Notes under the pieces: generated by a model
Told to the model about the DNA's origin: nothing
Database searches by the model: none
The model's input: only the letters and a program-made list of their open reading frames with translations
Program-made: the position numbers and the translations under genes
Shown here: positions 7,902 through 61,368 of the stretch, one piece after another
Numbering within the stretch: the stretch's first letter is position 1
Layout of the letters: each line of letters starts with the position of its first letter
DNA from: an uncultured Actinomycetes bacterium
GTDB lineage: Bacteria > Actinomycetota > Actinomycetes > Streptosporangiales > Streptosporangiaceae
Direction of reading: 5' to 3'
Assembly (NCBI GenBank): GCA_963713815.1
Contig: CAVQNH010000007.1
Coordinates: 90-64,089 of the forward strand
Length of the DNA: 64,000 nt

Positions 7902-8120
7902 CCTCTGCCAACCCGGCCGCCCCCTGCCTCCGCAAGCGCCAACGGGGTCCCTCCCCGGTCAGCCGAGCCAACGCCGAGGCCTGGCGGGTTCAACGGCCCG
8001 TCAACCGTCAGTTGGACCTAGGCACCACGAGTTCCCACGCGCCCACGAGAACGCATGCTGACCGGCTCATTAGTTTTCGAGGGCCTTAACAGGGCAGCAC
8101 GCGCTGGGCATACTGTCTCT

Positions 8121-8657
8121 ATGGCTTGGACCGAGGCGGCAACGGCACTTGTTGGCATCAGCGGAGGCCTCTTGGCCGCGGTAGGAGCCGCGACTACGTA
8201 TGGCACCAATCGTAGGGCCCAATACGACAGAGTTTTAGCTGAGACCTCAAAATTGACTACCGGCGACATTGCCATCAGTCGGCACCGTATCGGCCTAATT
8301 CTGGAGCATCCCGCAGATGACGGCCCTTGCCTCGACGAAAAGCAGGTAGAGGATTTTTATGATGTGCTGTGGATGTTTGAGAGATTGGACGCGCTCTTTA
8401 CATCACTGCAGCCAATCATTCCCCGTAGAAGGTTTACCCGTCCTCAACGTCTACTGTTGATCAGCGTCAACAGCGCTGCCGCCAACTGGATGGTTTACGT
8501 GGAAAATCTGCCAAGACCGATCACGGATGTCTCAAAAAGCAGTGCTGGCTTGAGACATCTGCACGCCGAGACCAGGGAGCTGACTTATGCTCCAAGTCTG
8601 GGGACCTGGCGGCATTCCAGAGCCGATTTTAAAGGCGGTGGTTCGGTTCCTTCGTGA
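8121..8657 (+). CDS. Hypothetical membrane-anchored protein in a low-GC island
   Basis: It has an N-terminal TM helix (ATALVGISGGLLAAVGAATTY) followed by a soluble helical domain. A/T-rich third codon positions are atypical for this genome. No family was recognised. Confidence 0.5.
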   Translation: MAWTEAATALVGISGGLLAAVGAATTYGTNRRAQYDRVLAETSKLTTGDIAISRHRIGLILEHPADDGPCLDEKQVEDFYDVLWMFERLDALFTSLQPIIPRRRFTRPQRLLLISVNSAAANWMVYVENLPRPITDVSKSSAGLRHLHAETRELTYAPSLGTWRHSRADFKGGGSVPS

Positions 8658-8816
8658 TGAATGGTAGCCTCGATCAGGCTTAATCTTGGTTTGGTGGCCT
8701 GAAACTGCAGGTGCGGGCGTCGTTCAGCCCGGCCATGCATACTGGACACAGGTGGCCCCTATCGCCCGACATCAGCTTTCTGACCTGCGCGGCTAACCTT
8801 ATTAGCCTCTTTGCCG

Positions 8817-9437
8817 CTAATTCGCATCGATGGAATCGCCGGGCGGCTCAGGGGGAAGATCACCAAAAATCCGCCGAGCTCGCGCATCGTGTGACTCACT
8901 GCTAGGCAGGCCGCCTCCCGTCACCTGTAGATCGCTTCGGGCCGATTCGTAAAACGCATCACGAGCTACATCAACTGCGGCTCTCGCAGTCCTCCAGTCA
9001 GAGTTATTCCCTGTAAGGAGTGCGCGTGCGTACGCCTCAAGCCGCCAAGCATGTTCATGCCAGTTTCTGCCAGCCGCCACAGTCTGAGGATGACCAAGCA
9101 GAAGAACAGTTTCCCACTGCCTAGCTCGCTCGTTTTCCGCAGCCGCTAGCAAATCAAGATTCTCCTGAGTCGGGATCAGCGGCTCAAGATCGCTACCAAG
9201 AAGACCCCTTCCAGCCGCGATGCGTCCTGCGATATTGATCATCTCCTTGACCGACTGAGCGTACGAGGCATAAGCCTCTACGCGTCGATCGTCCCATCGG
9301 CTATCTAGCGCTCGTTTCCACCGAGCGCGTTCTGTGGCCGCTGTGGTTAGGTACGACGCCAGAGCGCCGATGATCACACCCAAAAGCACTAGTGCCTGGT
9401 TTAGAAGCTGCACTATGACATCATCTGACAGTATCAA
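8817..9437 (-). CDS. Hypothetical membrane-anchored protein in a low-GC island
   Basis: It has an N-terminal TM helix (LLNQALVLLGVIIGALASYL) followed by a helical domain. Codon usage is low-GC3 (ata, tca, cta, ctt, aat). It is convergent with 8121..8657. Confidence 0.55.
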   Translation of the reverse strand: MILSDDVIVQLLNQALVLLGVIIGALASYLTTAATERARWKRALDSRWDDRRVEAYASYAQSVKEMINIAGRIAAGRGLLGSDLEPLIPTQENLDLLAAAENERARQWETVLLLGHPQTVAAGRNWHEHAWRLEAYARALLTGNNSDWRTARAAVDVARDAFYESARSDLQVTGGGLPSSESHDARARRIFGDLPPEPPGDSIDAN

Positions 9438-9570
9438 CCACTCGGCAGCGTAATCCTGACGTCCAGAGCCCGCCTGTTCCGTCTCTGTTCCCGGCTAACA
9501 CTGATCGGCGGCGGCGCGAGCGGCCCGGCGGGCCGCCTTGAAGCCGCAGAGAAACTACTCACCACCTCCG

Positions 9571-9626
9571 CTGAAGGCATCTGTCTGAAGGCATCCGCTG
9601 AAGCCATCCGTACTCAAGCATCCGTG
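9571..9626. repeat. Tandem array, 4 units of 13-15 bp (ctgaaggcatccg-like)
   Basis: Units: ctgaaggcatctgt / ctgaaggcatccg / ctgaagccatccgta / ctcaagcatccgtg. It is followed by a bulged hairpin at 9631-9657 (gaaccatgat gtgcg gatcatgggttc). Confidence 0.85.
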
Positions 9627-9901
9627 CCGTGAACCATGATGTGCGGATCATGGGTTCGCTTATCAAACTGCCTGCAGGTCGGATACCAGGCAGCGAGCAC
9701 GGAGGATAGGTGAGAATGCTGGCACCGTCCCGCCAGCAAGTCATAACCACACACGATGCAGCCGCCAGATGGACCACATCAGGGCGTCGCCGGGGTCGTC
9801 CTCGACCACCTGCACGCCGGCCGGGCGTGCCGCACATGTGACCTCCTCGCCTCTGGAAGATCAGCCGGTGGTTTACGGCCTCGGGTGGCTACAGTTCGTT
9901 C

Positions 9902-10453
9902 GTGGTCAACGTCGAGCTGGTCCGCGCCGGCGAACACCTTGTCGGAACGGTTGGCGAGCAGCGGGTCGAGCTCGTGCTCGATATCCCGAACAGTCGTGCT
10001 GGCATCCGCGGCGAGAGCCTCGGCGCGCCGGTCGGGGGCTACTGGCGGATCGAATCCAACTTCAACACTCTTGACTCGGTCGGGCTGTTCCTCGGAGAGT
10101 ACGATGGCAGACCGGTCCATCTGCGAAGCGACGTCCATCTGACGCCTCATTACGCTGTGCGCCACGCCGACGTTTCTGGCGCTGTCGGCGAGCAAGAACT
10201 TCGAGCGCATGTCGCGCCGGTCGAAGCGCCCGCCTACGGGCCGACAGTCATGAGCATCGACGGAGACTTCGACGGGGCCGTAATTACCTTGTTCGTCACC
10301 GTCGCGACCGATCTGAGCGAGGCTCACATCAACGGGGTCATCGGCGGACACACGATCTGCATCGACGCAGCACTTTCATCGGTCAGCGGACAATATGACG
10401 GGCCGGCAGCACTGTTCCCACTGCTCGTGAGCTGCCTGCTGTACTTCATCTGA
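9902..10453 (+). CDS. Hypothetical protein (beta-rich, hydrophobic C-terminal tail)
   Basis: I preferred the plus frame over the overlapping minus ORF 9779..10351 because third-codon positions are strongly G/C-biased in the plus frame (gtc aac gtc gag ctg gtc cgc gcc ggc ...). GTG start. The C-terminus reads ALFPLLVSCLLYFI. Confidence 0.5.
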   Translation: MVNVELVRAGEHLVGTVGEQRVELVLDIPNSRAGIRGESLGAPVGGYWRIESNFNTLDSVGLFLGEYDGRPVHLRSDVHLTPHYAVRHADVSGAVGEQELRAHVAPVEAPAYGPTVMSIDGDFDGAVITLFVTVATDLSEAHINGVIGGHTICIDAALSSVSGQYDGPAALFPLLVSCLLYFI

Positions 10454-51248: not shown

Positions 51249-52190
51249 TCAGCCCAGCCGGTCCAGCATCGTGGCCAGCAGCTCCGTGGTGGGTACCCGC
51301 CGCTCGGCCTGGACGCACATCTGGTCCATGACCGCGGAGTAGTGATCGACGTCGCGCCGCTTGTCCAGGTACAGCGCGCTGGTCAGCTGCTCCAGGTAGA
51401 CCACGTCGGGCAGTTCCGGCGGGGCGAAGCGCAGGATGCTGAATGAGCCAGCCGCGGCGGCGTGGTACCCGCTCTGCAGTGGCACCACATACAGCGCGAT
51501 GTTCGGCTCGCTGGCCAGCTCGATGAGCCGCTCCAGCTGGGCTTCCATCACCCCCGGACCGCCCAGCCGGCGGCGCAGCGCGGTCTCGTCCACGACGGCC
51601 CACAGTTTCGGCGCCCGCAGGTCCGGGCCGTCCGGCCGGGACAGGATCTGCTGGCGCTTCATCCGCAGGCTGACCCGGCGGGTGATCTCGTCCTCCGGGG
51701 CGGCCGGGTGGCCGGCCCGGATCACCGCGCGGGCATACTCCGGGGTCTGCAGCAGGCCCGGCACGAACTGCATCTCGTAGACGCGGATCCGGGTCGCGGC
51801 CGCTTCCAGCCCGATGTAGAACTCGAACCAGCCGGGCAGGATCTCACCGTACTGATGCCACCACCCGGGCCGGGCGGCCTCGCGGGCCAGCCGCAGCACG
51901 TCGGCCCGCTCCGCCTCCCCCGTCACCCCGTACAGGGTGAGCAGGTCCGCGAGGTCGCGCTGCTTCATGCTGACCCGGCCGTGCTCCAGCCGGCTGATCT
52001 TCGAGGCCGAGGCCCGGATCACGTCCCCCGCCGCCTCACAGGTGATGCCGTGCGCCTCGCGCAGGCGGCGCAGCTGGCTGCCGAGCGCGATGCGCAGGGC
52101 GGTCGGCCCGCTGGGCGCCGGGTCTGGCACCGGCGGGCCGGCCGGCCTAGCGGCCGGGGCGGGATCGGGCTGCGGCTCGGGGCTGGACAT
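51249..52190 (-). CDS. XRE-family HTH regulator with a DUF5753 C-domain (second copy; no adjacent DUF397 or ATPase)
   Basis: LRIALGSQLRRLREAHGITCEAAGDVIRASASKISRLEHGR...WWHQYGEILPGWFEFYIGLEAAA...LLQTPEYARAVI...VVYLEQLTSALYLD. Start at ATG 52190. Confidence 0.85.
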   Translation of the reverse strand: MSSPEPQPDPAPAARPAGPPVPDPAPSGPTALRIALGSQLRRLREAHGITCEAAGDVIRASASKISRLEHGRVSMKQRDLADLLTLYGVTGEAERADVLRLAREAARPGWWHQYGEILPGWFEFYIGLEAAATRIRVYEMQFVPGLLQTPEYARAVIRAGHPAAPEDEITRRVSLRMKRQQILSRPDGPDLRAPKLWAVVDETALRRRLGGPGVMEAQLERLIELASEPNIALYVVPLQSGYHAAAAGSFSILRFAPPELPDVVYLEQLTSALYLDKRRDVDHYSAVMDQMCVQAERRVPTTELLATMLDRLG

Positions 52191-54008
52191 CGGGGCTCCG
52201 GCTGGTGTGGTGACGGCCCAGTGTCCCACTACCGCCCCCTGGATCGCTACGTTCAGGCAGGACCGGAAGCGACAGCGTGCAGGGGTCGGCGACCTCGTGC
52301 AGGATTTGCAGGTCCACCGCGACAAGCCGGGTCGCGGTGGCTGGCGGCTCGCCGGACCCGGTGTTGCGGGCGAACCGGGGATGGGCCCCGCCCGACACCT
52401 GGAGCCGCAGCCGGTGCCCGGCCGCGAACCGGTACGCGGTCGCGCTCATCGGCACGGTGACGGCCTCTGGCGTCCTTTGTATCCCCCGGCCCATCTGTGC
52501 CCCCCGGCTCCGCCGTGCCGCCCGGTGCGCCGGCGGGCGGTGCCTGATGATGCCGTCACAGACGTTCCGTGAACGCCCCCGCGGGTCCACGTCACACAGC
52601 CGGGCGAAGACGTCGAAGTGGCCACCCGAGGCACGGACCCGGACCCGGGCGCTGACCGGGCCGACCACGTCCAGCGCCGCGGTCAGCGGGGCACTGGTGA
52701 AGACCAGGACGTCGGGGCGGGCCTCCAGGGCCCGGTTGTCCGCGGGCCCGGCCTTGCCGGTGAGCAGCTGGCCGCCCACTGACGGGGTGGGATCCGCCGG
52801 GTCGTAGCGGAACGAGGAGATCCCCGGCTGGGCGGGCGGCTCGGGAACCAGGCTGCCCCCGGCGGCCAGATACCAGGGCTGGCGGGCCATTTCCGGCGGC
52901 GGCCAGTCGGCCAGGTCCCGCCATTCGCCGGCGCCGTCTATGTACACCCGCACCGGGAGGTCCTCGTTGCGGATCTGGTCGGCCTGGTCCGGGTCTGGCT
53001 TTCCGGGATCTGGCCGTCGCCGGTGTAAGCCCGCAGCCAGCTGAGCGCCTCGCCCAGGACGACCGGGAGGGCCTTATTGAACGCCGAGGAGTGCGTCCAC
53101 GGGCCGATCACCAGCCGCACCGGACGGCGGCCTCCGTCGCGCAACCGGCGGTACTCGGCCAGGACCGGGTCCAGGCAGGCGTCCCACCAGCCGGTGAGCA
53201 GGCTGACCGGAAGCGCCGGCGCCAGGGCGCTGGCCGGGATCTGCAAGGCGGCCCAGTACGGGTCCGCCTGGTCGGGGTGGGTCAGCCAGTCCTCGAACCA
53301 GGCCACCCGGCCCCCCAGGGCCGGCGGGTACGCCCGGATCAGGGGCAGTTCCCGGCTGACCCGCCGCATCCGGCGCTGCACCCGCAGCCCGGTCCTGATC
53401 ACCGCGGCCATCCCGTGCTCGAAGCCCAGCTTGGCGGCGGTGGCCACGAGCACGTTTTCCAGGGCGAACGCACCTCCGGGATACGCGAACTCATACGGAC
53501 CGGACATGGCGACCTGCGCGACCATGGCCTGCAGTTCCGGAGGCTGTTCGGCGGCCAGCGCGAACTGGACATAGCCGAGGTAGCTCGGCCCGATCGTGGC
53601 CAGCTGCCCGGTGAACCAGGACTGCTCACGGAGCCAGGCCACGGTGGCCCGGCCATCGGCCCGCTCGTGACGGAACGGCTCGTCCGCGCCGCCGGACCCG
53701 CCGGTGCCGCGGCAGCTCTGGATCACGACGTGGAACCCCTGCTCGGCGATCAGGCCGCCGAACAGGTGGTCCCAGGGGAAGCCGCGGCCGTACGGGGTGC
53801 GGACCAGCACGGTGGGCCGCGGGCTGTCGACCTGGGGAATGTAGTGGTCGGTGAGCAGCGGCACGCCGTCGGCCGCGGGCACCGCCAGGCCCGGGTCGAC
53901 CCGGACCGCGCATTCGGGCGGGGGCAGGTCCCGCAGGTCCCGCCGGGACAGCCGCATCCACAGGCGGACGTGCCGGGGCAGGGGAGCGCCCCGGGATGGC
54001 TCGGTCAT
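52147..54008 (-). pseudogene. CocE/NonD-family (X-Pro dipeptidyl-peptidase S15-like) alpha/beta hydrolase, frame-disrupted (-1) near 52995-53012
   Basis: N-part: DGVPLLTDHYIP...PTVLVRTPYGRG...QGFHVVIQSCRGTGGSGG...WFTGQLATIGPSYLGY. C-part, in another frame: VRVYIDGAGEWRDLADWPPP...RPDVLVFTSAPL...FAAGHRLRLQVSGGAHPRFARN. Length mod 3 = 2. ATG 54008 preceded by GAAGGAG. Confidence 0.8.
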
Positions 54009-54069
54009 CGTGACTCCTTCGCTCGTTCGGCCTGGCCTGGCCCGACCGGCTGCCGGGCCGTCCGGCCAG

Positions 54070-54124
54070 CTACGTACGTTGTACGTTGTTCTCTCGCGCA
54101 CAATACTCCGTACGGTGCACGTAG
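54070..54124. promoter_or_regulatory. Imperfect inverted repeat rich in ACGT cores in the TetR/hydrolase divergent spacer (candidate TetR operator)
   Basis: ctacgtacgttgtacg (54070-54085) versus cgtacggtgcacgtag (54109-54124). 12 of 16 positions are complementary. Internal direct gtacgtt gtacgtt. Confidence 0.3.
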
Positions 54125-54153
54125 ATAAGCTGCGGGGCGGAGGTGAGACATCG

Positions 54154-54912
54154 GTGGCCACGTCAGGCGGGGATCCGGAGGCGACGACCCCGGTTCCGGG
54201 GTCCATCTGGGACGTGCCGGAGTACGGCGGGCGCGGGCCCCGGCCCAGGCACAGCCGGGCCGCGATCGCCGCCGCCGCGGTCTCGCTGGCCGACGCCGAG
54301 GGTATCGACGCGGTCACGATGCGGCGGGTCGCGGCCGGCCTGGGCATGGGCACGATGTCGCTGTACAACTACGTGCCGTCCAAGGAGCACCTGGTCCAGC
54401 TGATGATCGACCAGGTGAGCGGCGAGTACCGCTACGCGGGCTCACCCCCGGGACGCCCCCCGGCTGACCGCCGGGCCGCGATCCTCGACCTGGCCCGGCA
54501 GGGACGGGACATCACCCGGCGCCACCCATGGCTGCCCCGGGTCATGCAGCGGCCCCCGGTTTTCGGGCCCGGTGCGCTGCGTTACATCGAGCACTTCCTC
54601 GGCCTGCTGAGCGGCTCTGACCTGGACACCGGAGCCAAGATGGAGATTCTCGGGATGGTCAACGGGTTCGCGATCTCCTACGGCGGAGTTCAGGCGGCGC
54701 AGGCCGAGGAACGGGCCCGGACCGGGGTGACCGAGGAGGAGCAGGCCGCCGCCCAGGTGACCAGCCTGGTGTCGGCCGCGGCCAGCGGCCGCTACCCGCA
54801 GCTGGCCGCGGCGCTGGCCGGGCCGCCCCCGCCGCCCCGGGACGCGGACGAGATCTTCGACCGCTGCATCCTGCGGCTCATCGACGGGGCGCTGGGAGGC
54901 CAGCCGGACTAG
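54154..54912 (+). CDS. TetR-family transcriptional regulator
   Basis: HTH: RAAIAAAAVSLADAEGIDAVTMRRVAAGLGMGTMSLYNYVPSKEHLVQLM. GTG 54154 with GGAGG 10 nt upstream. It is divergent from the hydrolase. Confidence 0.85.
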   Translation: MATSGGDPEATTPVPGSIWDVPEYGGRGPRPRHSRAAIAAAAVSLADAEGIDAVTMRRVAAGLGMGTMSLYNYVPSKEHLVQLMIDQVSGEYRYAGSPPGRPPADRRAAILDLARQGRDITRRHPWLPRVMQRPPVFGPGALRYIEHFLGLLSGSDLDTGAKMEILGMVNGFAISYGGVQAAQAEERARTGVTEEEQAAAQVTSLVSAAASGRYPQLAAALAGPPPPPRDADEIFDRCILRLIDGALGGQPD

Positions 54913-55178: not shown

Positions 55179-55817
55179 TTAGGGGTGAGGGGGGAGATGC
55201 CCGTCCTCGACGGCTCGATAGTACAGGTCCAATTTGGTGGGTGCTGCCCGTCCTGCTCTAGCGTACTTCTCACGCACGCGGCCCACATACTGCTTGGCCG
55301 TCTCCTCACTAATGCCCATCCGCCTGGCCACGGACTTCATCGCCATCCCGGTGGCGTAAAGCTGGAGGGCCCGCGTTTCCTGGGTACTTAGTATGGGCCG
55401 GTCAGGGGCGTCGTCGGTGGCGAAGATGTAGGCCAGGCGGGGCGAGATCCAATCCTTTCCATCGGCCACCGCCGTAATGGCGGCCCGTACCTCAGAAGTC
55501 TCTTCGTTCTTAAGTACATAGCCGAGCGCGCCGGCCCGAATCGCGTCGCGGACCGAGACCGGCTTGTCCGAGGCGGCGAGGACCAGCACCGCGGGGCCGG
55601 CGGCGCGGATCACCGCCACGTTGCGCTCCGCCGTGGTCCCGTCCCCCAGGTCGAGGTCGAGGAGGACCACGTGGGCGTGCCGCCCGGGCCCGGCCAGGAG
55701 TCCGTCCACGGTCGCCGCGGTGGCGATGACCCGGATGCCGCTGTCCAGGCCGCTGACCCAGCCCGCGATGCTGTCCAGGATGATCGGGTGATCATCCACG
55801 GCCGCCACATCGATCAT
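55179..55817 (-). CDS. NarL/LuxR-family two-component response regulator
   Basis: Receiver: VAAVDDHPIILDSI...HVVLLDLDLGDG. LuxR HTH: LSTQETRALQLYATGMAMKSVARRMGISEETAKQYVGRV. The start overlaps the upstream stop (ATGA). Confidence 0.9.
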   Translation of the reverse strand: MIDVAAVDDHPIILDSIAGWVSGLDSGIRVIATAATVDGLLAGPGRHAHVVLLDLDLGDGTTAERNVAVIRAAGPAVLVLAASDKPVSVRDAIRAGALGYVLKNEETSEVRAAITAVADGKDWISPRLAYIFATDDAPDRPILSTQETRALQLYATGMAMKSVARRMGISEETAKQYVGRVREKYARAGRAAPTKLDLYYRAVEDGHLPPHP

Positions 55818-57123
55818 GCCGGTCCTGCCGGGCGCCAGCTGATCTCGAGGCAGCCCGAGCCGGTGTCATCCACATCGAGCCCGGCCCGCCAGCGGGCGAT
55901 GCTGGCAGGCGCCGGCCATGCCGGGGGGCGGGCGCCGGGGGGCAGGTGCCCGAAGGTCAGGTACAGCTCGACGTCCGGGATCGGGTCGGCCGGGACAGCA
56001 CCAGCGCGGACAGCGCCAGCCGGGACAGTGCCAGCCGGGGCAGCGCCAGCCGGGACAGCCAGTGCGGGCCAGCCGGGGCAGGGCCAGCCGGTGCAGGGCC
56101 AGCCGGGGCAGGGCCAGCCGGTGCAGGGCCAGCCAGCCCGGGATTGGCCGGCCCGGACGGCCCGAGCACGGTCATCGTGACCGTTTGCGGCGGGAGCGCC
56201 CGCAGGACCGCGTCCACCGCGTCGACGGTCGCCTGGGCCGCGTCCCGCGACGGCAAACCCGGGTCCCCGACCACCTGGATCTCGATCTGCAGGCCGCGCC
56301 CCCGGGCGGCGCCGAGCGCCGGTTCCAGCCCGGCCAGGAGTTCGCGTCCCAGCCGGGCCCGGTCCACGAGGGCGCGCCGCAGGGTGGTGGCGTGCCGGGC
56401 GCATTCCTGCCGGACCGCCTCGTCGGCGGGGTCGAGCGAGCCGTCCGCGATGCCGCGCAGCAGCGGCAGCGCCTCCACCTCCAGCAGCGCGAACCGGTCC
56501 CGCCGGTCCTCCTCGATCGCGGCGACCGCGGCGCGTTCCGCCGCCGAGCGGCTAGCCAGCTCGGCCCGGCGGGCGGCCAGCCCGGCGTGCACCCGCAGGG
56601 TGGGCCGCAGGGCGGCGAACACGCTGAGGATCACCGCCACCACGTACGTGGCCGCGGCGAGCCGGGCGATGCCAGGCGCCGCGGTCCCCAGCAGGCGCAC
56701 GATGAAGAAGCCGTTGACCGCCAGCACGAGCAGCGCCCCGGGCACCCATTCCCAGGCGGGACGGCTGAGGGCGGCGAGCGCGAGCAGCCAGACGGCGCCG
56801 AGGATCGACCAGTCCAGGACACCCGACGGGGAATGCGGCCGGCGGTCCCAGCCCACCGCGCCAACGGCCGCGACCGCCACCGCCATCGCCACCGCGGCCT
56901 GCCTCCGGGTGAGGCCGCCCCCGCGGACGCGCGGGATCACCCACCACGCGGCCACGAGCAGGCTCAGCCAGACGGCGAACGGCACGGCCGGCTGACGGTA
57001 GTCGGGGAGTTCGGCCAGCACCTGGACGAGCAGGCCGACCGGCAGGACCGCGGCCAGGATGGCCGCGAAGCGCGGGACCGCGGCCTCGGTCACGTCCCGC
57101 ACCGCCCCGGCGTGGCTCACCAT
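55814..57123 (-). pseudogene. Degenerate histidine-kinase paralogue (no H-box His, no N/G boxes) with a long pentapeptide array; frame-disrupted (-1) near 56060-56075
   Basis: It has a multi-TM N-terminus. RFALLEVEALPLLRGI sits where the paralogue has EHERLLHDTMLNTL. RGLQIEIQVVG, TVTMTVL and GLDVDDTGSGCLEISW align with the upstream kinase. Frame A reads GPAPAGPAPAGPAPAGPAPAG. Frame B reads AVPAGAAPAGTVPAGAVRAGAVPADPIPDVELYLTF. Length mod 3 = 2. Confidence 0.7.
55991..56136 (-). repeat. 15-bp tandem array, about 10 units, inside the degenerate kinase gene
   Basis: Minus-strand units: ctggccctgcaccgg / ctggccctgccccgg (x2 each), then ctgtcccggctggcg-type units. Confidence 0.9.
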
Positions 57124-58442
57124 GACGAGTCCACCCCGACCAGGTCGGCCTCGGCCGCGGGGACGGCCCCGGGCCAGCTCATGCTGACCAGGGTTCCCTG
57201 GCCCGGCGCGGACCGTACCGACACGCGGCCGCCCCAGTCAGCCACCCGCTCGGTGATCGAGCAGCGCAGCCCCAGCCGGGCCGGATCTACCCGGGCCGGG
57301 TCGAACCCCGCGCCCGCGTCGCGCACGGTGACGTCCAGGGTGCCCGGGCCCAGGGTGCCCGGGTCCAGGGTGCCCGGGCCCAGGGTGCCCGGGTCCAGGG
57401 TGATCGTGACCCAGGCCTCTCCTGTCCCGGCGTGAGCGGCCACGTTGGCCAGCGCTTCCCGGGTGGCGTGCACGATGGCCCCGGCCACTGGTACCGGGAT
57501 GTCCGGCCCCGGATCCCGGCCGGCCACCTGCAGGTGCACGCGCAGGCCCCGGGCCCGCATCTCGCTGGCCACCGCCTCGACGTCAGCCACCAGGCGGGCT
57601 CCGCCCGGGCCGGCCGGGTCCGCGGGATCGCCGGGGGCCGCGAGCGCGTGCTCCAGCAGCGCGATGTCCTGGCTGCACCGGGCTACCACCGCCGGGCCGC
57701 TGCTCCCGCGGCTGATCGCGGTGAGCGTATTCAGCATGGTGTCGTGCAGCAGGCGCTCGTGTTCGCGGCGTTCGATGGTCCGGGACAGGACGACGTACTG
57801 ATCGTGTGCTTCCTGGTCGGCAGCGGCGAACCCACGGTCGGCCCGGGCCGCCCGCCGGTCGAGCATGCCGCGGGCCGTCCAGTGCACGGCCAGCACGACC
57901 AGCAGCAGCGCCCCGGACACCACCGGGGTGTTCCCCTGGACCCGGCCGGGCGGGGTCACCGCGACGCTGGCCAGGTAGGCCACCTCCGGAGCCACGCCCA
58001 GCAGCACGACCAGCACCCGGGGCGCGAACCAGACCGTCACGATGACCTGGCTGGTCGTGGCGACGTAGAGCCAGTTTCCGGCCACGCCGCGCATGTCAGG
58101 CGGCACGCACGTCCCGGCCATGATCGCGAGTGCGGCGTAGAAGCTGGTGTCGAGGACGATCAGCGGCCAGGGCGGGTCGCGGCGGCGCAGGTAGGCCGCG
58201 GCCGCGCACCCCCAGGCCACCGCGGCGAAAGGCCCGGCCAGCAACCACGGGTGGGCGGCGTAGTAGCCGTGCCAGATCACGACCTGCACGACGATGTAGC
58301 TAACGCCGAAGACCCGCACGAGGGCGGCCATCCGCCGGACCACCGACCTGAGCACGGCCATCGCCGGCCCGGCCGTAAACCCCCCTGACCGCCACCACGC
58401 GGCGGCCGACGCTGATAAGGAACGGGAACGAGACGACCGCAT
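57117..58442 (-). CDS. Membrane sensor histidine kinase (HisKA_3/NarX-class partner of the NarL-type regulator)
   Basis: H-box EHERLLHDTMLNTL. N-box IVHATREALANVAAHA. G-box VRDAGAGFD. C-terminus GQGTLVSMSW. The start is uncertain: ATG 58442 is chosen, while the track ORF starts at GTG 58499 inside a direct repeat. Its stop overlaps the next gene start (ATGGTGA). Confidence 0.85.
   Translation of the reverse strand: MRSSRSRSLSASAAAWWRSGGFTAGPAMAVLRSVVRRMAALVRVFGVSYIVVQVVIWHGYYAAHPWLLAGPFAAVAWGCAAAAYLRRRDPPWPLIVLDTSFYAALAIMAGTCVPPDMRGVAGNWLYVATTSQVIVTVWFAPRVLVVLLGVAPEVAYLASVAVTPPGRVQGNTPVVSGALLLVVLAVHWTARGMLDRRAARADRGFAAADQEAHDQYVVLSRTIERREHERLLHDTMLNTLTAISRGSSGPAVVARCSQDIALLEHALAAPGDPADPAGPGGARLVADVEAVASEMRARGLRVHLQVAGRDPGPDIPVPVAGAIVHATREALANVAAHAGTGEAWVTITLDPGTLGPGTLDPGTLGPGTLDVTVRDAGAGFDPARVDPARLGLRCSITERVADWGGRVSVRSAPGQGTLVSMSWPGAVPAAEADLVGVDSSW
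57333..57407 (-). repeat. 15-bp tandem array, 5 units (alternating gtccagggtgcccgg / gcccagggtgcccgg), inside the kinase ATPase domain
   Basis: Encodes PGTLG PGTLD PGTLG PGTLD between the strands WVTITLD and VTVRDAGAGF. Confidence 0.9.
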
Positions 58443-58462
58443 GGCCCGATCATAGGACGTTT

Positions 58463-58516
58463 CTCCGGTCACTCTGCGTGTTTTGCCCCCTCCGGTCACT
58501 CTGCGTACTTTGCCGG
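58463..58516. repeat. 27-bp direct repeat x2 upstream of the kinase operon (candidate response-regulator binding sites)
   Basis: ctccggtcactctgcgtgttttgcccc / ctccggtcactctgcgtactttgccgg. It is followed by the perfect palindrome tgaccggccggtca at 58521-58534. Confidence 0.85.
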
Positions 58517-58531
58517 CCGGTGACCGGCCGG

Positions 58532-60283
58532 TCAGCGCAGCCAGGCAGCCGTGTCCGGGGGGAGCAGGCCCCCGGTCACCGGGCCGCTGCTGAGCAGGAT
58601 CTCGTCGTGCGGGGGAAGGTCCACCGGCTCAGCGGACAGGTTGACGATCACGGTGACCGCGGCCGGCTCCTCGCCGCGCCGGAAACACAGCACCCCGTCG
58701 GGTGACGGCAGCCAGGCCAGCCCGGCGGTGCCCAGGCCGGGTTCGGCCCGGCGCAGCCGCAGGGCGCGCCGGTACAGCGAGAGCATGGAGCCCGGGTCGC
58801 CCGACTGGGTCTCGGCGGTCAGGTTCTTCCACTCGGCGGGCTGGGGCAGCCAGGGGCTGCTGCCCTCCGGGCCGTACCCGAACGGGGCGGCGTCCCCGGA
58901 CCAGGGCAGGGGGACCCGGCAGCCGTCCCGGCCCCGGTTGGTGTGGCCGGACCGTTCCCACATCGGGTCCTGCAGCAACTCCTCGGGCAGGTCCTCGACC
59001 TCGGGCAGGCCGAGCTCGTCTCCCTGGTACAGGTACACCCCGCCCGGCAGCGAGAACGTCAGCAGCGCGGCGGCCCGGGCCCGGCGGGTACCGAGCGCGA
59101 GGTCGGACGGCTCGCCGATCTGGCGGTCGGTCATGCTGAACGCGGTGTCGGCCCGGCCGTAGCGGGTTACGTGCCTGACCACGTCGTGGTTGCTGAGCAC
59201 CCAGGTTGGCGTCGCGCCCACCCGGTCGTGCGCGTCCAGCGTGGTGTCGATGACCCCGCGCAGCGCGCCCGCGTCCCAGGCACAGCACAGGAAGTCGAAG
59301 TTGAACACGCTGTGCAGCTCGTCCGGGAGCAGGTACCGGGCCAGCCGCTGCGCGTCGGGCAGCCAGACCTCGCCGATCAGCACCCGGTCCCCGGGATAGG
59401 AGTCCGCGATCCGGCGCCACTCCTGGTAGATCCCGTGCACCTCGTCCCGGTCGATGAACGGGTGCGGCTCGTCGGGGTCCCGGGCCGCCCCGGCCGGCGC
59501 CGCCGGGCCAGCCGGGGTGGCCCCGACCGGCGCGGAGCTGCCGGGCGTGGGGGTCGCGCCCAGGTCGGCCAGCCCGGGGTCCTTGGCCAGCAGCGCGGCC
59601 GAGTCGATGCGGAGGCCGTCCACCCCGCGGTCGAACCAGAACCGCAGCACGCTGGCGAATTCGGCCCGCACGTCCGGGTGCGCCCAGTTGAAGTCGGGCT
59701 GGCCGGGCGTGAACAGGTGCAGGTACCACTCGCCCGGTGCCCCGTCGGCCCGCTGCCCAGCTGAGGGGCCAGCCGTGGACTCCGCTGACGGCGTCCGGGT
59801 CCAGGCCGGGCCGCCGAACATCGAGGTCCAGTCGTTCGGCGGGAGCTCTCCCCCGGGGCCCCGGCCGGGCCGGAAGTGGTAGCGGGACCGCTCGGCCGAG
59901 CCGGGCGGGGCGTCCAGCGCCCGGGCGAACCAGGGCTGCTGATCCGAGCCGTGGTTCGGGACGACGTCGATGATGATCCTGATGCCGAGGTCGTGCGCCT
60001 CGGTGATCAGCTTCTCCGCCTCGGCCAGGCTGCCGAACAGCGGCTCGATCGCCCGGTAGTCGGCCACGTCGTAACCGGCGTCCGCCATGGGCGAGGGATA
60101 CCACGGGGCGAACCAGATCGCGTCGATGCCCAGCTCGGCCAGGTAGGGCAGGCGCGCGCGGACGCCGGCCAGGTCACCGACGCCGTCGCCGTTGCCGTCC
60201 GCGAAGCTGCGCACGTACACCTCGTAGATGGCAGCCGTCCGCCACCAGTCATGCGCCGAAGCGCCCTGGCCAGTGCTGGGCAC
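58532..60283 (-). CDS. aglA: GH13 alpha-glucosidase (oligo-1,6-glucosidase/AglA-like)
   Basis: [64 protein letters not shown]...[11 protein letters not shown]...[10 protein letters not shown]...GEVW...SNHDVVR. GTG 60283 has AGGAGG 5 nt upstream. An alternative ATGA-coupled start at 60436 would add a PVPAS-repeat N-tail. Confidence 0.85.
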
Positions 60284-60330
60284 GTTAACCTCCTGGAAAT
60301 CGGCGAGAGCCGACCTGTTTCTGATTATGG

Positions 60331-60405
60331 GCGCAGTGCTTGCAGGCCCAGTGCTTGCAGGCACAGGGCTTGCAGGCACAGGGCTTGCAGGCACAGGGCG
60401 CCGCG
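60331..60405. repeat. 15-bp tandem array, 5 units (gcacagggcttgcag-like), between the malG stop and the aglA core
   Basis: Units: gcgcagtgcttgcag / gcccagtgcttgcag / gcacagggcttgcag x2 / gcacagggcgccgcg. Confidence 0.9.
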
Positions 60406-60432
60406 ATAACGGGGGATGCGGTCCGCAGGCGT

Positions 60433-61368
60433 TCATCCCTTGAGGCCTCCGGCGGTGAGGCCGGACAGGATGTTGCGCTGGAAGATCAGGAAAAAAATGA
60501 TCGTGGGAATCGCGGCCATGGCGGAGGCGGCGATGATGAGGTTCTCGGGTGTAGTCGTCGCCCCGGTGATCCCGACATTGATCGTTTCCCTGGTTGGGGT
60601 GTAGCCGCTCTCGACCAGTAGCGGCCAGAGGAAATCCTTCCAGACAGTGACGAACGCGAAGATCGTGACGACACCCAGGATCGGCCTGGAAATCGGCAGG
60701 ACTATCGAGCGCAGAGCCCGCAGCGGGGACGCACCATCGATCGCCGCGGCATCCATGAGCTCGGAGGGAATCGAATCGAAGAACCGCTTGAGCAGGAAGA
60801 TGTTGAAGGCGTTAGCGACGGAAGGCAGCCATATGGCCTCGGGTGTGCCGATCAGGCTTATATGCAGGAAAGGCAGGCTGGCCACGGTCAGGTACTGCGG
60901 CACGATCAGGACGGTGGACGGGATCATCAAAGTGGCCAGCATCATGCCGAAGATGGCGTTACCCAGCACCGGCCGGAGCTTTGAGAACGCGAAGGCAGCG
61001 GCAACGTCGAAGATGAGCTGGAACGCGAGCGCGCCGAACGCGTAATACAGGGTGTTGAACAGCAGCCGGCCGACGCTGAGGGTATTCCAGGCCGTGACGT
61101 AGGTGCTCGGATGGATGTGGGCCGGGAAAAGCGTCGGCGGCACCGCGCCCGCTTCCTGGGTGGACTTGAGCCCGTCGGTGAACAGGAAGTAAAGCGGGCC
61201 GATGAACACCAGCGTGAAGACCACGACGACCAGGGTCAGGATGATCCGGTAGGCGACCTTGCTGCCCCGCCGGTTCAGCTGGGCGGTGGATATCAGGGTC
61301 CGTGACGATGTGTTGCGCGGCGCCGTGCGGCGCCCCGGCGTCCCGGCTCTGGCGGGGATCACTGACAC
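60433..61368 (-). CDS. malG: Carbohydrate ABC transporter permease (MalG/AglG-like)
   Basis: Six-TM permease with an EAA-type loop region (IPSELMDAAAIDGASPLRALRSIVLPISRP). GTG start with AGGAG upstream. Confidence 0.85.
   Translation of the reverse strand: MSVIPARAGTPGRRTAPRNTSSRTLISTAQLNRRGSKVAYRIILTLVVVVFTLVFIGPLYFLFTDGLKSTQEAGAVPPTLFPAHIHPSTYVTAWNTLSVGRLLFNTLYYAFGALAFQLIFDVAAAFAFSKLRPVLGNAIFGMMLATLMIPSTVLIVPQYLTVASLPFLHISLIGTPEAIWLPSVANAFNIFLLKRFFDSIPSELMDAAAIDGASPLRALRSIVLPISRPILGVVTIFAFVTVWKDFLWPLLVESGYTPTRETINVGITGATTTPENLIIAASAMAAIPTIIFFLIFQRNILSGLTAGGLKG

What the first reader, a model, noticed from the sequence alone, without database searches (positions are those of the whole stretch)
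55991..57407. Two paralogous kinase genes carry different pentapeptide arrays at the same structural position
In the upstream kinase the array (PGTLG/PGTLD x4) lies between WVTITLD and VTVRDAGAGF, i.e. between the N-box strand and the G1 box of the ATPase domain. In the downstream paralogue a much longer array (GPAPA..., AVPAG, AAPAG, TVPAG...) lies between the aligned TVTMTVL and VELYLTF.

The position is the same but the unit sequences differ. So either an ancestral array diverged after gene duplication, or this loop is a recurrent insertion and expansion hotspot. Either way the ATP-lid-proximal loop length is likely variable.
Basis: partly seen in the sequence, partly recalled or inferred. 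Interest (0 to 1): 0.65.

Follow-up and report, generated by a model that had tools for sequence, protein, structure and literature searches.

The report
Repeat-expanded hairpin in kinase and pseudokinase

Summary
Both 15-nt arrays are real: 57333-57402 (4.5 copies) and 55982-56134 (about 10 copies). AlphaFold models place both in the beta2-beta3 hairpin of the ATPase-like domain.

1. The downstream array spans a frameshift. TVTMTVL and VELYLTF are in different frames, and the window is 1 nt short of an open frame.
2. The downstream gene is not a kinase. It has an invariant Glu in place of the phospho-His, no N or G1 box, and no Pfam hit.
3. The hairpin tip comes before the G1 box, not beside the ATP lid.

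Orthologues in more than 80 uncultured Streptosporangiaceae/Trebonia MAGs settle the origin. Deep branches have a 5-6-residue turn in both families. Arrays appear only in shallow clades, with at least 6 unit types per family, and copy number differs between sequences whose cores are 90-99% identical. So this is a recurrent hotspot, not a diverged ancestral array. Units begin with the last two residues of beta2, where single-copy relatives carry a 6-nt direct repeat 12-15 nt apart, a likely slippage seed.

The window holds 21 tandem arrays against about 0.85 expected. The frameshift is probably a long-read consensus error, but this is unproven.

This is an ordinary mechanism with a neat parallelism.

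The parts
57117..58361 (-). HK-A: membrane sensor histidine kinase. The probable start is the ATG at 58361; the mechanical ORF runs up to 58499.
   Evidence: Pfam HATPase_c scores 37 bits against a cut-off of 26.4. H206, N306, D348-G350-G352 and G364 are invariant in 61 orthologues. Orthologues cover 90% of the 460-aa ORF, and the 97%-identical one is 414 aa. The ATG was read. The AF2 model has pLDDT 80, and its Foldseek hits are EL346, VraS, CckA and DesK.
57333..57402 (-). HK-A array: (ACCCTGG[A/G]CCCGGGC) x4.5, encoding TL(D/G)PG, in frame, at the beta2-beta3 hairpin tip.
   Evidence: TRF. Codon view. Model residues 324-340 lie between strands 315-323 and 341-348, with pLDDT 61-72.
55814..57123 (-). 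HK-B: paralogue of HK-A with a degenerate catalytic core (a pseudokinase). In this window it is split over two frames: 57123 to about 56062 in frame 1, then about 56060 to 55814 in frame 2.
   Evidence: ORFs 55957-57123 and 55814-56404. Intact orthologues of 377-423 aa cover 100% of the read-through. No Pfam or NCBIfam hit. Invariant E215 aligns with H206 of HK-A. The GC3 phase changes across the array.
55982..56134 (-). HK-B array: GPAPA x4, then the junction, then GAAPA, GTVPA, GAVRA, GAVPA, DPIPD. The unit is 15 nt.
   Evidence: TRF. DNA. In the intact orthologue P0121 the array occupies residues 321-371 between strands 314-320 and 372-378, with pLDDT below 50.
56048..56070 (-). Frameshift junction: a 14-nt unit GGCCCGCACTGGCT followed by a 9-nt partial unit GTCCCGGCT.
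   Evidence: The window carries 38 extra nt compared with L001. No short-read contig spans this junction in the runs where the pieces could be inspected (X1, X5, X6, X13); the contigs of X2, X3 and X13 skip over it. Contigs that skip 83 or 68 nt give open 408- and 413-aa alleles.
55179..55817 (-). NarL/LuxR-type response regulator. Its ATG overlaps the frame-2 stop of HK-B (ATGA).
   Evidence: Pfam Response_reg and GerE. ORF coordinates. The same three-gene order is seen in L001 and L002.
58463..58514 (-). 27-nt direct repeat upstream of HK-A, a candidate operator or promoter element.
   Evidence: TRF. Sequence. The core CGCAGAGTGAC is found upstream of HK-A in L001 (x2), L002, L004, L008, L010, L011 and L022.

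Best explanation
The locus is a three-gene signalling operon on the minus strand: a sensor kinase (HK-A), its catalytically dead paralogue (HK-B), and a NarL-type response regulator.

In one shallow clade of uncultured soil and peat Streptosporangiaceae, the tight beta2-beta3 hairpin of the ATPase-like domain has repeatedly been lengthened in both paralogues. This happened independently in each, by tandem duplication of 15-nt units through replication slippage.

The likely seed (inferred) is a short direct repeat already present in single-copy relatives. The codons for the last two residues of beta2 (TL or VL) recur 12-15 nt downstream, where beta3 begins. Each unit is therefore 'two strand residues plus the turn', which is five codons.

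The products are Gly/Pro/Ala-rich, predicted-disordered tips of a surface hairpin, on the far side of the sheet from the nucleotide pocket. They are tolerated rather than required (inferred).

The genome is generally rich in 13-28-nt tandem arrays, and only in-frame periods persist inside genes.

The frameshift in the window's HK-B array is more likely a long-read consensus error in a length-polymorphic GC-rich repeat than a real pseudogene (about 60:40, inferred).
For: Arrays and frames.

Same hairpin: AF2 element order; hhalign register on the ATPase-like domain alone; mapping of HK-A onto EL346, DosT and VraS.

Independent, recent origin:
- All 28 outgroup HK-B sequences have 5-residue loops.
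- Arrays occur only in the clade at 76% identity or above, with units GPAPA, APSVL, TQDVL, ANPVL and APPVP. A separate GDLNS x6 array occurs in a Trebonia MAG.
- HK-A basal loops are 5-6 residues. Separate expansions use TL(G/D)PG, TLGTG, DAGAP, GADSP, GLTGSD and RDGLA (about 18 copies, 294 nt).

Fast turnover:
- HK-A has 1-7 copies among sequences 88-97% identical to the window's over the BLASTP alignment.
- HK-B loops are 26-51 residues among sequences whose cores are 97-99% identical.
- All three 15-nt arrays in the 13-kb syntenic block differ in length between the window and L001, which is 98.4% identical.
- Short-read contigs show shorter in-frame alleles.

Seeds: L009 has ACCCTG-GGCGCC-ACCCTG. 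L006 has GTGCTC-GCCCAGAGC-GTTCTC. L021 has (GTGCTCACCCAGGAC) x3.

Repeat-rich genome: 21 arrays against 0.85 expected.

Frameshift probably technical:
- Every out-of-frame loop among the fetched loci is in an MFD assembly or in an ENA assembly with the same contig naming (L002). MFD MAGs are Nanopore-derived (PMC12313526).
- The frameshifted homologues found by protein search (P0131, P0174, P0185, P0219) are all listed as ENA-only.
- The HK-A array of L002 has four 1-nt deletions, all in C or G runs.
- The window's junction is absent from the short-read contigs examined.

HK-A and HK-B act as one unit: their genes overlap by 7 nt, and they are fused into single 750-970-aa proteins in Frankia/Parafrankia isolates.
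Against: - No model coordinates were available. The structural equivalence rests on secondary-structure order plus a weak profile alignment, and one parameter set gave a different register.
- Neutrality of the arrays is inferred, not tested. Arrays are always in frame in short-read assemblies, which shows that the genes are kept but says nothing about loop function.
- The base missing from the window's array need not lie in a homopolymer. Aligned to L001's SPVLA unit it would be a T in CCCTG, so a Nanopore-type error is not proven.
- Short-read contigs show presence, not absence, and they come from other samples.
- The HK-B array has no hairpin-forming potential (z +2.4), so DNA secondary structure is not a shared driver.
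Confidence: 0.68

Rival explanations
1. Adaptive tuning or contingency locus. Loop length in HK-A and HK-B is a selected, rapidly evolvable setting of signalling (for example it could change contacts between the ATPase-like domain and the DHp helices, or between HK-A and HK-B). Out-of-frame array alleles would switch the pseudokinase partner off and uncouple translation of the response regulator.
For: Parallel expansion in two interacting paralogues within the same genomes. Very fast turnover. Out-of-frame alleles recur at the arrays in several assemblies. With the frameshift, HK-B would stop 140 nt before the regulator's start codon instead of overlapping it.
Against: The 15-nt unit keeps the frame, unlike classical phase-variable repeats. 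Arrays of the same kind sit in unrelated genes and in intergenic DNA all over the window. The loops are predicted disordered and lie far from catalytic motifs. Out-of-frame alleles were seen only in MFD/ENA assemblies, and one of them carries obvious homopolymer errors.
Confidence: 0.12
2. HK-B is a genuine, recent pseudogene in this strain: a real 1-nt deletion (or a 38-nt insertion) in the array truncated the protein after beta2.
For: The window sequence as given is out of frame. GC3 remains high in the downstream frame, which would fit a very recent event. A laboratory precedent exists for a frameshift in a kinase's ATP-binding domain that produced a selected pseudokinase: ChrS in Corynebacterium (PMC9491836, title and abstract only).
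Against: Relatives at 95-96% protein identity are intact (P0121, P0122). The junction is not seen in the short-read metagenomes that carry this population. A second gene nearby is also out of frame relative to L001 and L002 (7 nt missing at 52980-52993), which suggests limited assembly accuracy.
Confidence: 0.3
3. An ancestral array was present before the HK-A/HK-B duplication and has since diverged in unit sequence.
For: Same hairpin and same 15-nt period in both paralogues.
Against: The paralogues are about 27% identical and co-occur in the loci fetched. They are fused in Frankia, so the duplication is old. Deep branches of both families, and the Frankia hairpins that could be read, have short non-repetitive turns. 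Unit types differ between sister clades within each family.
Confidence: 0.02
4. The arrays themselves are assembly artefacts of repetitive long-read consensus.
For: Errors are demonstrable inside arrays in some Nanopore MAGs (L002).
Against: In-frame arrays of the same kinds occur in records from JGI metagenome assemblies, in the k141-named SMAG contig of L004, and in Logan contigs of several metagenome runs.
Confidence: 0.02

Closest known systems
Coding variable-number tandem repeats produced by slipped-strand mispairing (bacterial VNTR or minisatellite loci, as used in MLVA typing; my own knowledge)
   Same: Head-to-tail units, high identity between neighbouring copies, copy number differing between near-identical genomes, and location in tolerant low-complexity protein segments.
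   Different: Here the same short beta-hairpin of two ancient paralogues has been hit independently and repeatedly, with different units. The seed appears to be microhomology created by the two strands of the hairpin. The unit is in frame, so this is not an on/off phase-variation repeat.
AbrC1/AbrC2/AbrC3 of Streptomyces coelicolor (an atypical two-component system with two kinases and one NarL-type regulator; PMC9739842)
   Same: Gene order kinase-kinase-regulator, with a NarL-family regulator, in an actinomycete.
   Different: Both AbrC kinases can phosphorylate the regulator. Here the second protein lacks the His, N box and G1 box. No sequence comparison with AbrC was made, and no repeat arrays are described for AbrC in the passages read.
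Catalytically degenerate histidine-kinase paralogues or partners (for example the RetS kinase region; the ChrS frameshift pseudokinase, PMC9491836)
   Same: A kinase-like fold kept without kinase chemistry and acting with a true kinase. The RetS kinase region is among the Foldseek hits of the HK-B model.
   Different: HK-B belongs to an unannotated family (over 800 homologues, 'hypothetical protein', no Pfam) with an invariant Glu at the His position. It is encoded next to, or fused with, its kinase partner. Its function is untested.
MacS family sensor kinases (NCBIfam NF047322)
   Same: This is the best NCBIfam match of HK-A, aligned nearly end to end.
   Different: The score is 67 bits against a cut-off of 300. 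HK-A is not a member, only a distant relative.

Membership tests
Sensor histidine kinase (DHp plus HATPase_c) - HK-A | Phospho-acceptor His in the H box | tested here: met
   LLHDT, with H206 and D207 invariant in 61 orthologues.
Sensor histidine kinase (DHp plus HATPase_c) - HK-A | N box Asn, G1 DxGxG and G2 Gly; HATPase_c above the Pfam gathering score | tested here: met
   N306, D348/G350/G352 and G364 are invariant. PF02518 scores 37 bits against 26.4.
Sensor histidine kinase (DHp plus HATPase_c) - HK-A | Autophosphorylation and phosphotransfer to the regulator | not testable with these tools
   This needs biochemistry.
   The profile alignment puts the invariant E215 (LLE.EALPLL) opposite H206.
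Sensor histidine kinase - HK-B | N box and G1/G2 boxes; HATPase_c profile match | tested here: not met
   No Pfam or NCBIfam hit at E up to 1. No Asn or DxGxG among the conserved columns. The model has no helix between beta3 and beta4.
Sensor histidine kinase - HK-B | DHp plus Bergerat-type alpha/beta fold | tested here: inconclusive
   Nearly all of the top Foldseek hits (47 of the 50 listed, including all of the best 40) are histidine kinases (HK853, RetS, DosS, MprB, DesK), but E is 5.9e-3 or worse. Homology to HK-A over the membrane and DHp parts has probability 94.9%.
MacS family (NF047322) | Score at or above the curated cut-off | tested here: not met
   67.4 bits against 300.
Slippage-driven coding VNTR | Head-to-tail repeats in clear excess over chance | tested here: met
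   TRF scores of 122-213. 21 arrays against 0.85 in simulations.
Slippage-driven coding VNTR | Copy-number polymorphism between closely related genomes | tested here: met
   Window against L001 (98.4% identical): differences of 15, 15 and 38 nt at the three arrays. 1-7 copies in HK-A orthologues at 88% identity or above. Shorter alleles in short-read contigs.
Phase-variable contingency locus | Unit length not a multiple of 3 (or a promoter location), so that copy changes switch expression | tested here: not met
   The unit is 15 nt. All loops in assemblies other than MFD/ENA ones are in frame.
Pentapeptide-repeat proteins (Pfam PF00805 type beta-helix) | Match to the pentapeptide profile, with many contiguous A(D/N)LXX-like units forming a helix | tested here: not met
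   No pentapeptide family among the Pfam hits at E up to 1. The arrays have low pLDDT and no regular structure.
AbrC-type kinase-kinase-regulator system | Two adjacent kinase genes followed by a NarL-type regulator | tested here: met
   Gene order and overlaps. Regulator domains.
AbrC-type kinase-kinase-regulator system | Both kinases able to phosphorylate the regulator | tested here: not met
   HK-B lacks every catalytic motif. This is a sequence-level test only.

The most novel reading that the evidence does not exclude
The hairpin arrays could be a selected, fast-evolving length dial on a kinase-pseudokinase signalling pair. Out-of-frame array alleles would then act as a reversible switch that removes the pseudokinase's C-terminal domain and uncouples translation of the response regulator. 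That would amount to VNTR-based tuning and phase variation of a two-component system in free-living soil actinomycetes.
Probability: 0.1. Interest if true: 0.7.

Novelty: new member of a known kind. Interest (0 to 1): 0.4.

Why it matters
If the picture holds, it is a clean natural example of how protein architecture and DNA mechanics combine to create an insertion hotspot. The two strands of a beta-hairpin encode similar dipeptides. That gives a short direct repeat one hairpin-turn apart, which seeds in-frame five-codon duplications at the same place in paralogues that separated long ago.

It also has three practical uses:
- It flags a large unannotated family of kinase-like partners (an invariant Glu in place of the phospho-His, fused to the kinase in Frankia) that automatic annotation calls 'hypothetical protein'.
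- It warns that GC-rich, length-polymorphic arrays are places where long-read metagenome assemblies produce apparent pseudogenes.
- These arrays would be usable strain markers for this uncultured soil lineage.

Tried and rejected
- Full-length hhalign of the two families stopped at the start of the ATPase-like domain, so it did not cover the arrays.
- Forcing the alignment from the DHp end gave a register that contradicts the models, with blank confidence. Slicing from beta1 gave the model-consistent register in two of three settings, but weakly. I therefore rely mainly on the order of secondary-structure elements in the models.
- A sequence search of the PDB with the HK-B profile found nothing relevant.
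- Model coordinates are not exposed, so no superposition or distance to the ATP site could be computed.
- An exact-sequence look-up of the window's 388-aa truncated product found no record. The regulator look-up returned only short contigs, so neither the window's source assembly nor its sequencing platform could be identified.
- No raw reads from the source sample were available, only Logan contigs from other samples.
- DNA hairpin potential as a common driver of slippage was rejected: z is -2.0 for the HK-A array but +2.4 for the HK-B array.
- Literature searches for repeat arrays in kinase ATP-binding domains found nothing specific.
- The GC3-phase test for which arrays are coding was only rough.
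Full report
**What is at the coordinates**

The window is high-GC DNA, about 0.70-0.77 GC around the locus. On the minus strand lie three tightly packed genes:
- ORF 57117-58499, called HK-A here. Its probable true start is the ATG at 58361.
- ORF 55957-57123, called HK-B here. Its ATG overlaps the HK-A stop in ATGGTGA.
- ORF 55179-55817, a response regulator with Response_reg and GerE domains.

Tandem Repeats Finder reports two period-15 arrays:
- 57335-57402: 4.5 copies at 94% matches. Read as a 30-nt unit it is 2.3 copies at 100%.
- 55989-56134: 10.2 copies at 79% matches.

The finding's coordinates therefore bracket the two arrays correctly.

The upstream array reads in frame: ACC CTG GA/GC CCG GGC x4, encoding TL(D/G)PG, between AWVTI and DVTVRDAGAGF.

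The downstream array does not. After four GGC CCT GCN CCG GCT units (GPAPA) comes a 14-nt unit, GGCCCGCACTGGCT, and then a 9-nt partial unit, GTCCCGGCT. The following units (GAAPA, GTVPA, GAVRA, GAVPA, DPIPD) and the C-terminal 60 residues (VELYLTF...EISWRPAGPA) are then in another frame, that of ORF 55814-56404.

From the start codon to the stop in that second frame is 1310 nt, which is 2 mod 3. In the first frame the protein ends in ...GPHWLSRLALPRLALS...SSCT*.

The third-position GC phase also changes across the array, as expected if both halves are or recently were coding.

**Is the frameshift real?**

Evidence that related populations have an intact gene:
- The closest relatives are intact. 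P0121 and P0122 (423 aa, 96% and 95% identical) cover the read-through end to end.
- Their loci, L001 and L002, have the same three-gene order.
- The window and L001 are 98.4% identical over 13.2 kb. At this array the window has 38 extra nt, which is 39 minus 1.
- Short-read-derived contigs from soil metagenomes that carry this population skip 83 nt (runs X2, X13) or 68 nt (X3) of the array. The shared microhomology at the joints is only 0-9 nt. Both skips restore an open frame, giving 408- and 413-aa proteins.
- No contig spans the junction in the four runs whose pieces could be inspected. Depth is zero at 56057-56074 in X1, X5 and X6, although the flanking units are covered up to about 145-fold in X1. 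X13 has no piece across 56058-56068.

Evidence that out-of-frame loops track the assembly type:
- Among the fetched loci, out-of-frame hairpin loops occur only in 'MFD' (Microflora Danica) MAGs and in L002, an ENA assembly with the same 'contig_N' naming. The loci are L002, L005, L010, L019, L028 and L059.
- The frameshifted homologues found by protein search (P0131, P0174, P0185, P0219) are all listed as ENA-only.
- The MFD MAGs come from deep Nanopore sequencing (PMC12313526).
- The HK-A array of L002 carries four separate 1-nt deletions, all in C or G runs of CCCGGGC. That looks technical.
- The window also lacks 7 nt at 52980-52993 relative to both L001 and L002, which splits a hydrolase gene.

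I could not identify the window's source assembly or obtain its reads. I put a consensus error at about 60% and a genuine recent pseudogene at about 30-40%.

**What the two proteins are**

HK-A is a bona fide sensor kinase:
- HATPase_c scores above the Pfam threshold.
- H206/D207, N306, D348-G350-G352 and G364 are invariant in 61 orthologues.
- The AF2 model (pLDDT 80) has about six membrane helices, a long DHp helix and an alpha/beta ATPase domain.
- Its best structural matches are EL346, VraS, CckA and DesK.
- It is only a distant relative of MacS: 67 bits against a 300-bit cut-off.

HK-B is a paralogue but not a kinase by sequence:
- Profile-profile comparison gives 94.9% probability (E 4.6e-8) over the membrane and DHp regions. 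It puts an invariant Glu (LLE.EALPLL, E215) opposite the phospho-His.
- It has no Pfam or NCBIfam hit and no N or G1 boxes.
- Its model lacks the helix that follows beta3 in HK-A.
- Its Foldseek hits are almost all histidine kinases (HK853, RetS, DosS, MprB, DesK), but only weakly, at E 5.9e-3 or worse.
- The family has more than 800 homologues, all annotated 'hypothetical protein'.

A full-library profile search shows the HK-B module fused behind an HK-A-like kinase in single 750-970-aa proteins. These occur in cultured Frankia and Parafrankia and in some Streptosporangiaceae. That argues that kinase and pseudokinase work as one unit. The closest named architecture is the kinase-kinase-regulator system AbrC1/C2/C3 of S. 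coelicolor, in which both kinases are active (PMC9739842).

**Same structural position?**

The two models have the same element order:

| Element | HK-A (window) | HK-B (P0121) |
|---|---|---|
| beta1 | 274-280 | 279-285 |
| helix | 290-310 (N box) | 293-309 |
| beta2 | 315-323 | 314-320 |
| array | 324-340, pLDDT 61-72 | 321-371, pLDDT below 50 |
| beta3 | 341-348, leading into DAGAG | 372-378 |
| between beta3 and beta4 | helix 360-374 | coil |
| beta4 | 379-385 | 400-405 |
| beta5 | 389-396 | 411-417 |

Other evidence on the register:
- hhalign on slices starting at beta1 aligns AWVTvsl with VtLTVLasg and l.VtVRD with vELYltF. The array inserts fall at the same point (E 4.8e-4; global and local modes agree). 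One other parameter set, and an earlier slice, gave a shifted register with no confidence.
- Alignment of HK-A to EL346, DosT and VraS shows that the site is the turn of the strand pair preceding DxGxG.

The arrays therefore sit in equivalent beta2-beta3 hairpin tips. This is supported at the level of topology, not by a coordinate superposition. The ATP lid lies after G1, so 'ATP-lid-proximal' is not supported. That point rests on general knowledge of the fold.

I fetched loci from 80 species-level genomes, all uncultured Streptosporangiaceae or Trebonia MAGs from soil and peat. I extracted both hairpins from them and ordered the protein sets by array-masked similarity.

HK-B:
- All 28 outgroup sequences in the tree (57-62% identity) have a 5-residue turn of the ASGDD type, and so do about 45 of the fetched loci.
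- Within the clade at 76% identity or above, the loop grows from 5-6 to 11-13 residues and then into arrays.
- The arrays are APSVL x1-4, TQDVL x3, ANPVL, APPVP, and GPAPA/GTAPA (26-51 residues among cores 97-99% identical).
- A Trebonia MAG has an unrelated GDLNS x6 array (L068).

HK-A:
- Basal members of the near clade have 5-6 residues (TLAAGA type).
- The far clade has about 12-14 mostly non-repetitive residues.
- Separate expansions use TL(G/D)PG (1, 2, 3, 4 or 7 copies among sequences 88-97% identical), TLGTG, DAGAP/VDTAG, GADSP/GGDTA, GLTGSD x3 (L046), and RDGLA at about 18 copies, 294 nt (L076).

The Frankia fused proteins whose hairpins could be read are short there as well.

The duplication that produced HK-A and HK-B is far older than any array. 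The arrays are recent, recurrent and independent. The 'hotspot' reading is right and the 'diverged ancestral array' reading is not.

**Mechanism**

At the DNA level each unit starts with the codons of the last two beta2 residues:
- Window HK-A: ACC CTG (TL) + GRC CCG GGC, repeated, ending ACC CTG GAC GTC.
- L021 HK-B: (GTG CTC ACC CAG GAC) x3, starting with the VL of TVL.

Single-copy relatives already contain the flanking direct repeat:
- L009: ACCCTG-GGCGCC-ACCCTG.
- L006 HK-B: GTGCTC-GCCCAGAGC-GTTCTC.
- L004 HK-B: GTGCTC-GCGCCGCCC-GTGCTG.

I infer that the similar dipeptides at the end of beta2 and the start of beta3 create 6-nt microhomology spaced 12-15 nt apart. This primes slippage and yields units of about five codons. 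That would explain both the shared position and the shared period. This step is inferred, not shown.

The background is a genome unusually rich in short tandem arrays: 21 in 64 kb against a mean of 0.85 in 20 third-order-Markov simulations. Periods not divisible by three seem to sit at gene ends or between genes, and in-frame periods inside genes, but that test was rough.

All three 15-nt arrays in the 13-kb block shared with L001 differ in length, while the rest of the block differs mainly by substitutions.

DNA hairpin potential is not a shared driver: z is -2.0 for the HK-A array and +2.4 for the HK-B array.

**Function of the arrays**

The loops are Gly/Pro/Ala/Thr-rich, predicted disordered, and at the tip of a surface hairpin. 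Similar arrays occur in unrelated genes, for example (PVPAS)n at the N-terminus of the neighbouring alpha-glucosidase (60330-60399). Some HK-B orthologues have arrays in a second loop, between beta3 and beta4 (P0191, P0197, P0216).

The most economical reading is tolerated, near-neutral length variation. An adaptive tuning or switching role is not excluded; I put it at about 10-12%. It would need biochemistry or genetics to test.

**Verdict**

- The phenomenon belongs to a known kind, slippage-driven coding VNTRs. It shows an instructive parallelism, and it has a side result in the unannotated kinase-pseudokinase unit.

Noticed in passing
window 60330-60399 (-): A third 15-nt array (4.7 copies) encodes (PVPAS)n at the N-terminus of the alpha-amylase-family glucosidase ORF 58532-60436. 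L001 has one more copy than the window. As single-stranded DNA the array folds unusually well (z -3.5).
   Followed up: partly
window 58463-58514 (-), upstream of HK-A: A 27-nt direct repeat (CAAAGTACGCAGAGTGACCGGAG / CAAAACACGCAGAGTGACCGGAG) lies just after a terminator-like palindrome, CCGGCCGG-TCA-CCGGCCGG. The core CGCAGAGTGAC is conserved upstream of HK-A in seven related loci, but is duplicated only in the window and L001. It is a candidate operator for the regulator, and the duplication is another recent tandem event.
   Followed up: partly
window 52980-52993 (within ORFs 52147-52953 and 52938-54368, - strand): The window lacks 7 nt (1+3+3) relative to both L001 and L002 in a short quasi-repeat. 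This splits a PepX_C-type hydrolase gene into two ORFs. L001 also has this gene split (527 + 100 aa). It is either a second real frameshift or a sign of limited consensus accuracy.
   Followed up: partly
whole window: There are 21 tandem arrays with TRF score 60 or above, with periods of 13-83 nt and many at 13-16. Composition-matched simulations give about 0.85. This lineage is unusually rich in short tandem duplications.
   Followed up: partly
proteins P0281, P0390-P0431 (Frankia, Parafrankia and some Streptosporangiaceae); HK-A-like and HK-B-like modules are fused into single 750-970-aa proteins in cultured Frankia/Parafrankia genomes. This is Rosetta-stone evidence that the kinase and its His-to-Glu pseudokinase partner form one signalling unit. 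The partner family is unannotated.
   Followed up: partly
L076 about 2460-2760 and L059 about 2570-2760 (HK-A hairpin): An extreme expansion: about 18 copies of RDGL(A/P)G-type units, 294 nt, in the same hairpin of HK-A in a distant MAG. The sister MAG L059 has the same unit, but out of frame (185 nt).
   Followed up: no
HK-B orthologues P0191, P0197, P0216: Short arrays (LAG x4, GREVA x2, NVL x2) lie in a second loop, between beta3 and beta4, which is the remnant of the ATP-lid region. The hairpin is therefore the dominant expansion site but not the only one.
   Followed up: no
window 8001-10000: GC drops to 0.58, against about 0.70 elsewhere. A 13/27-nt tandem array lies at 9567-9624. This could be an island, an RNA gene or an intergenic region.
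   Followed up: no
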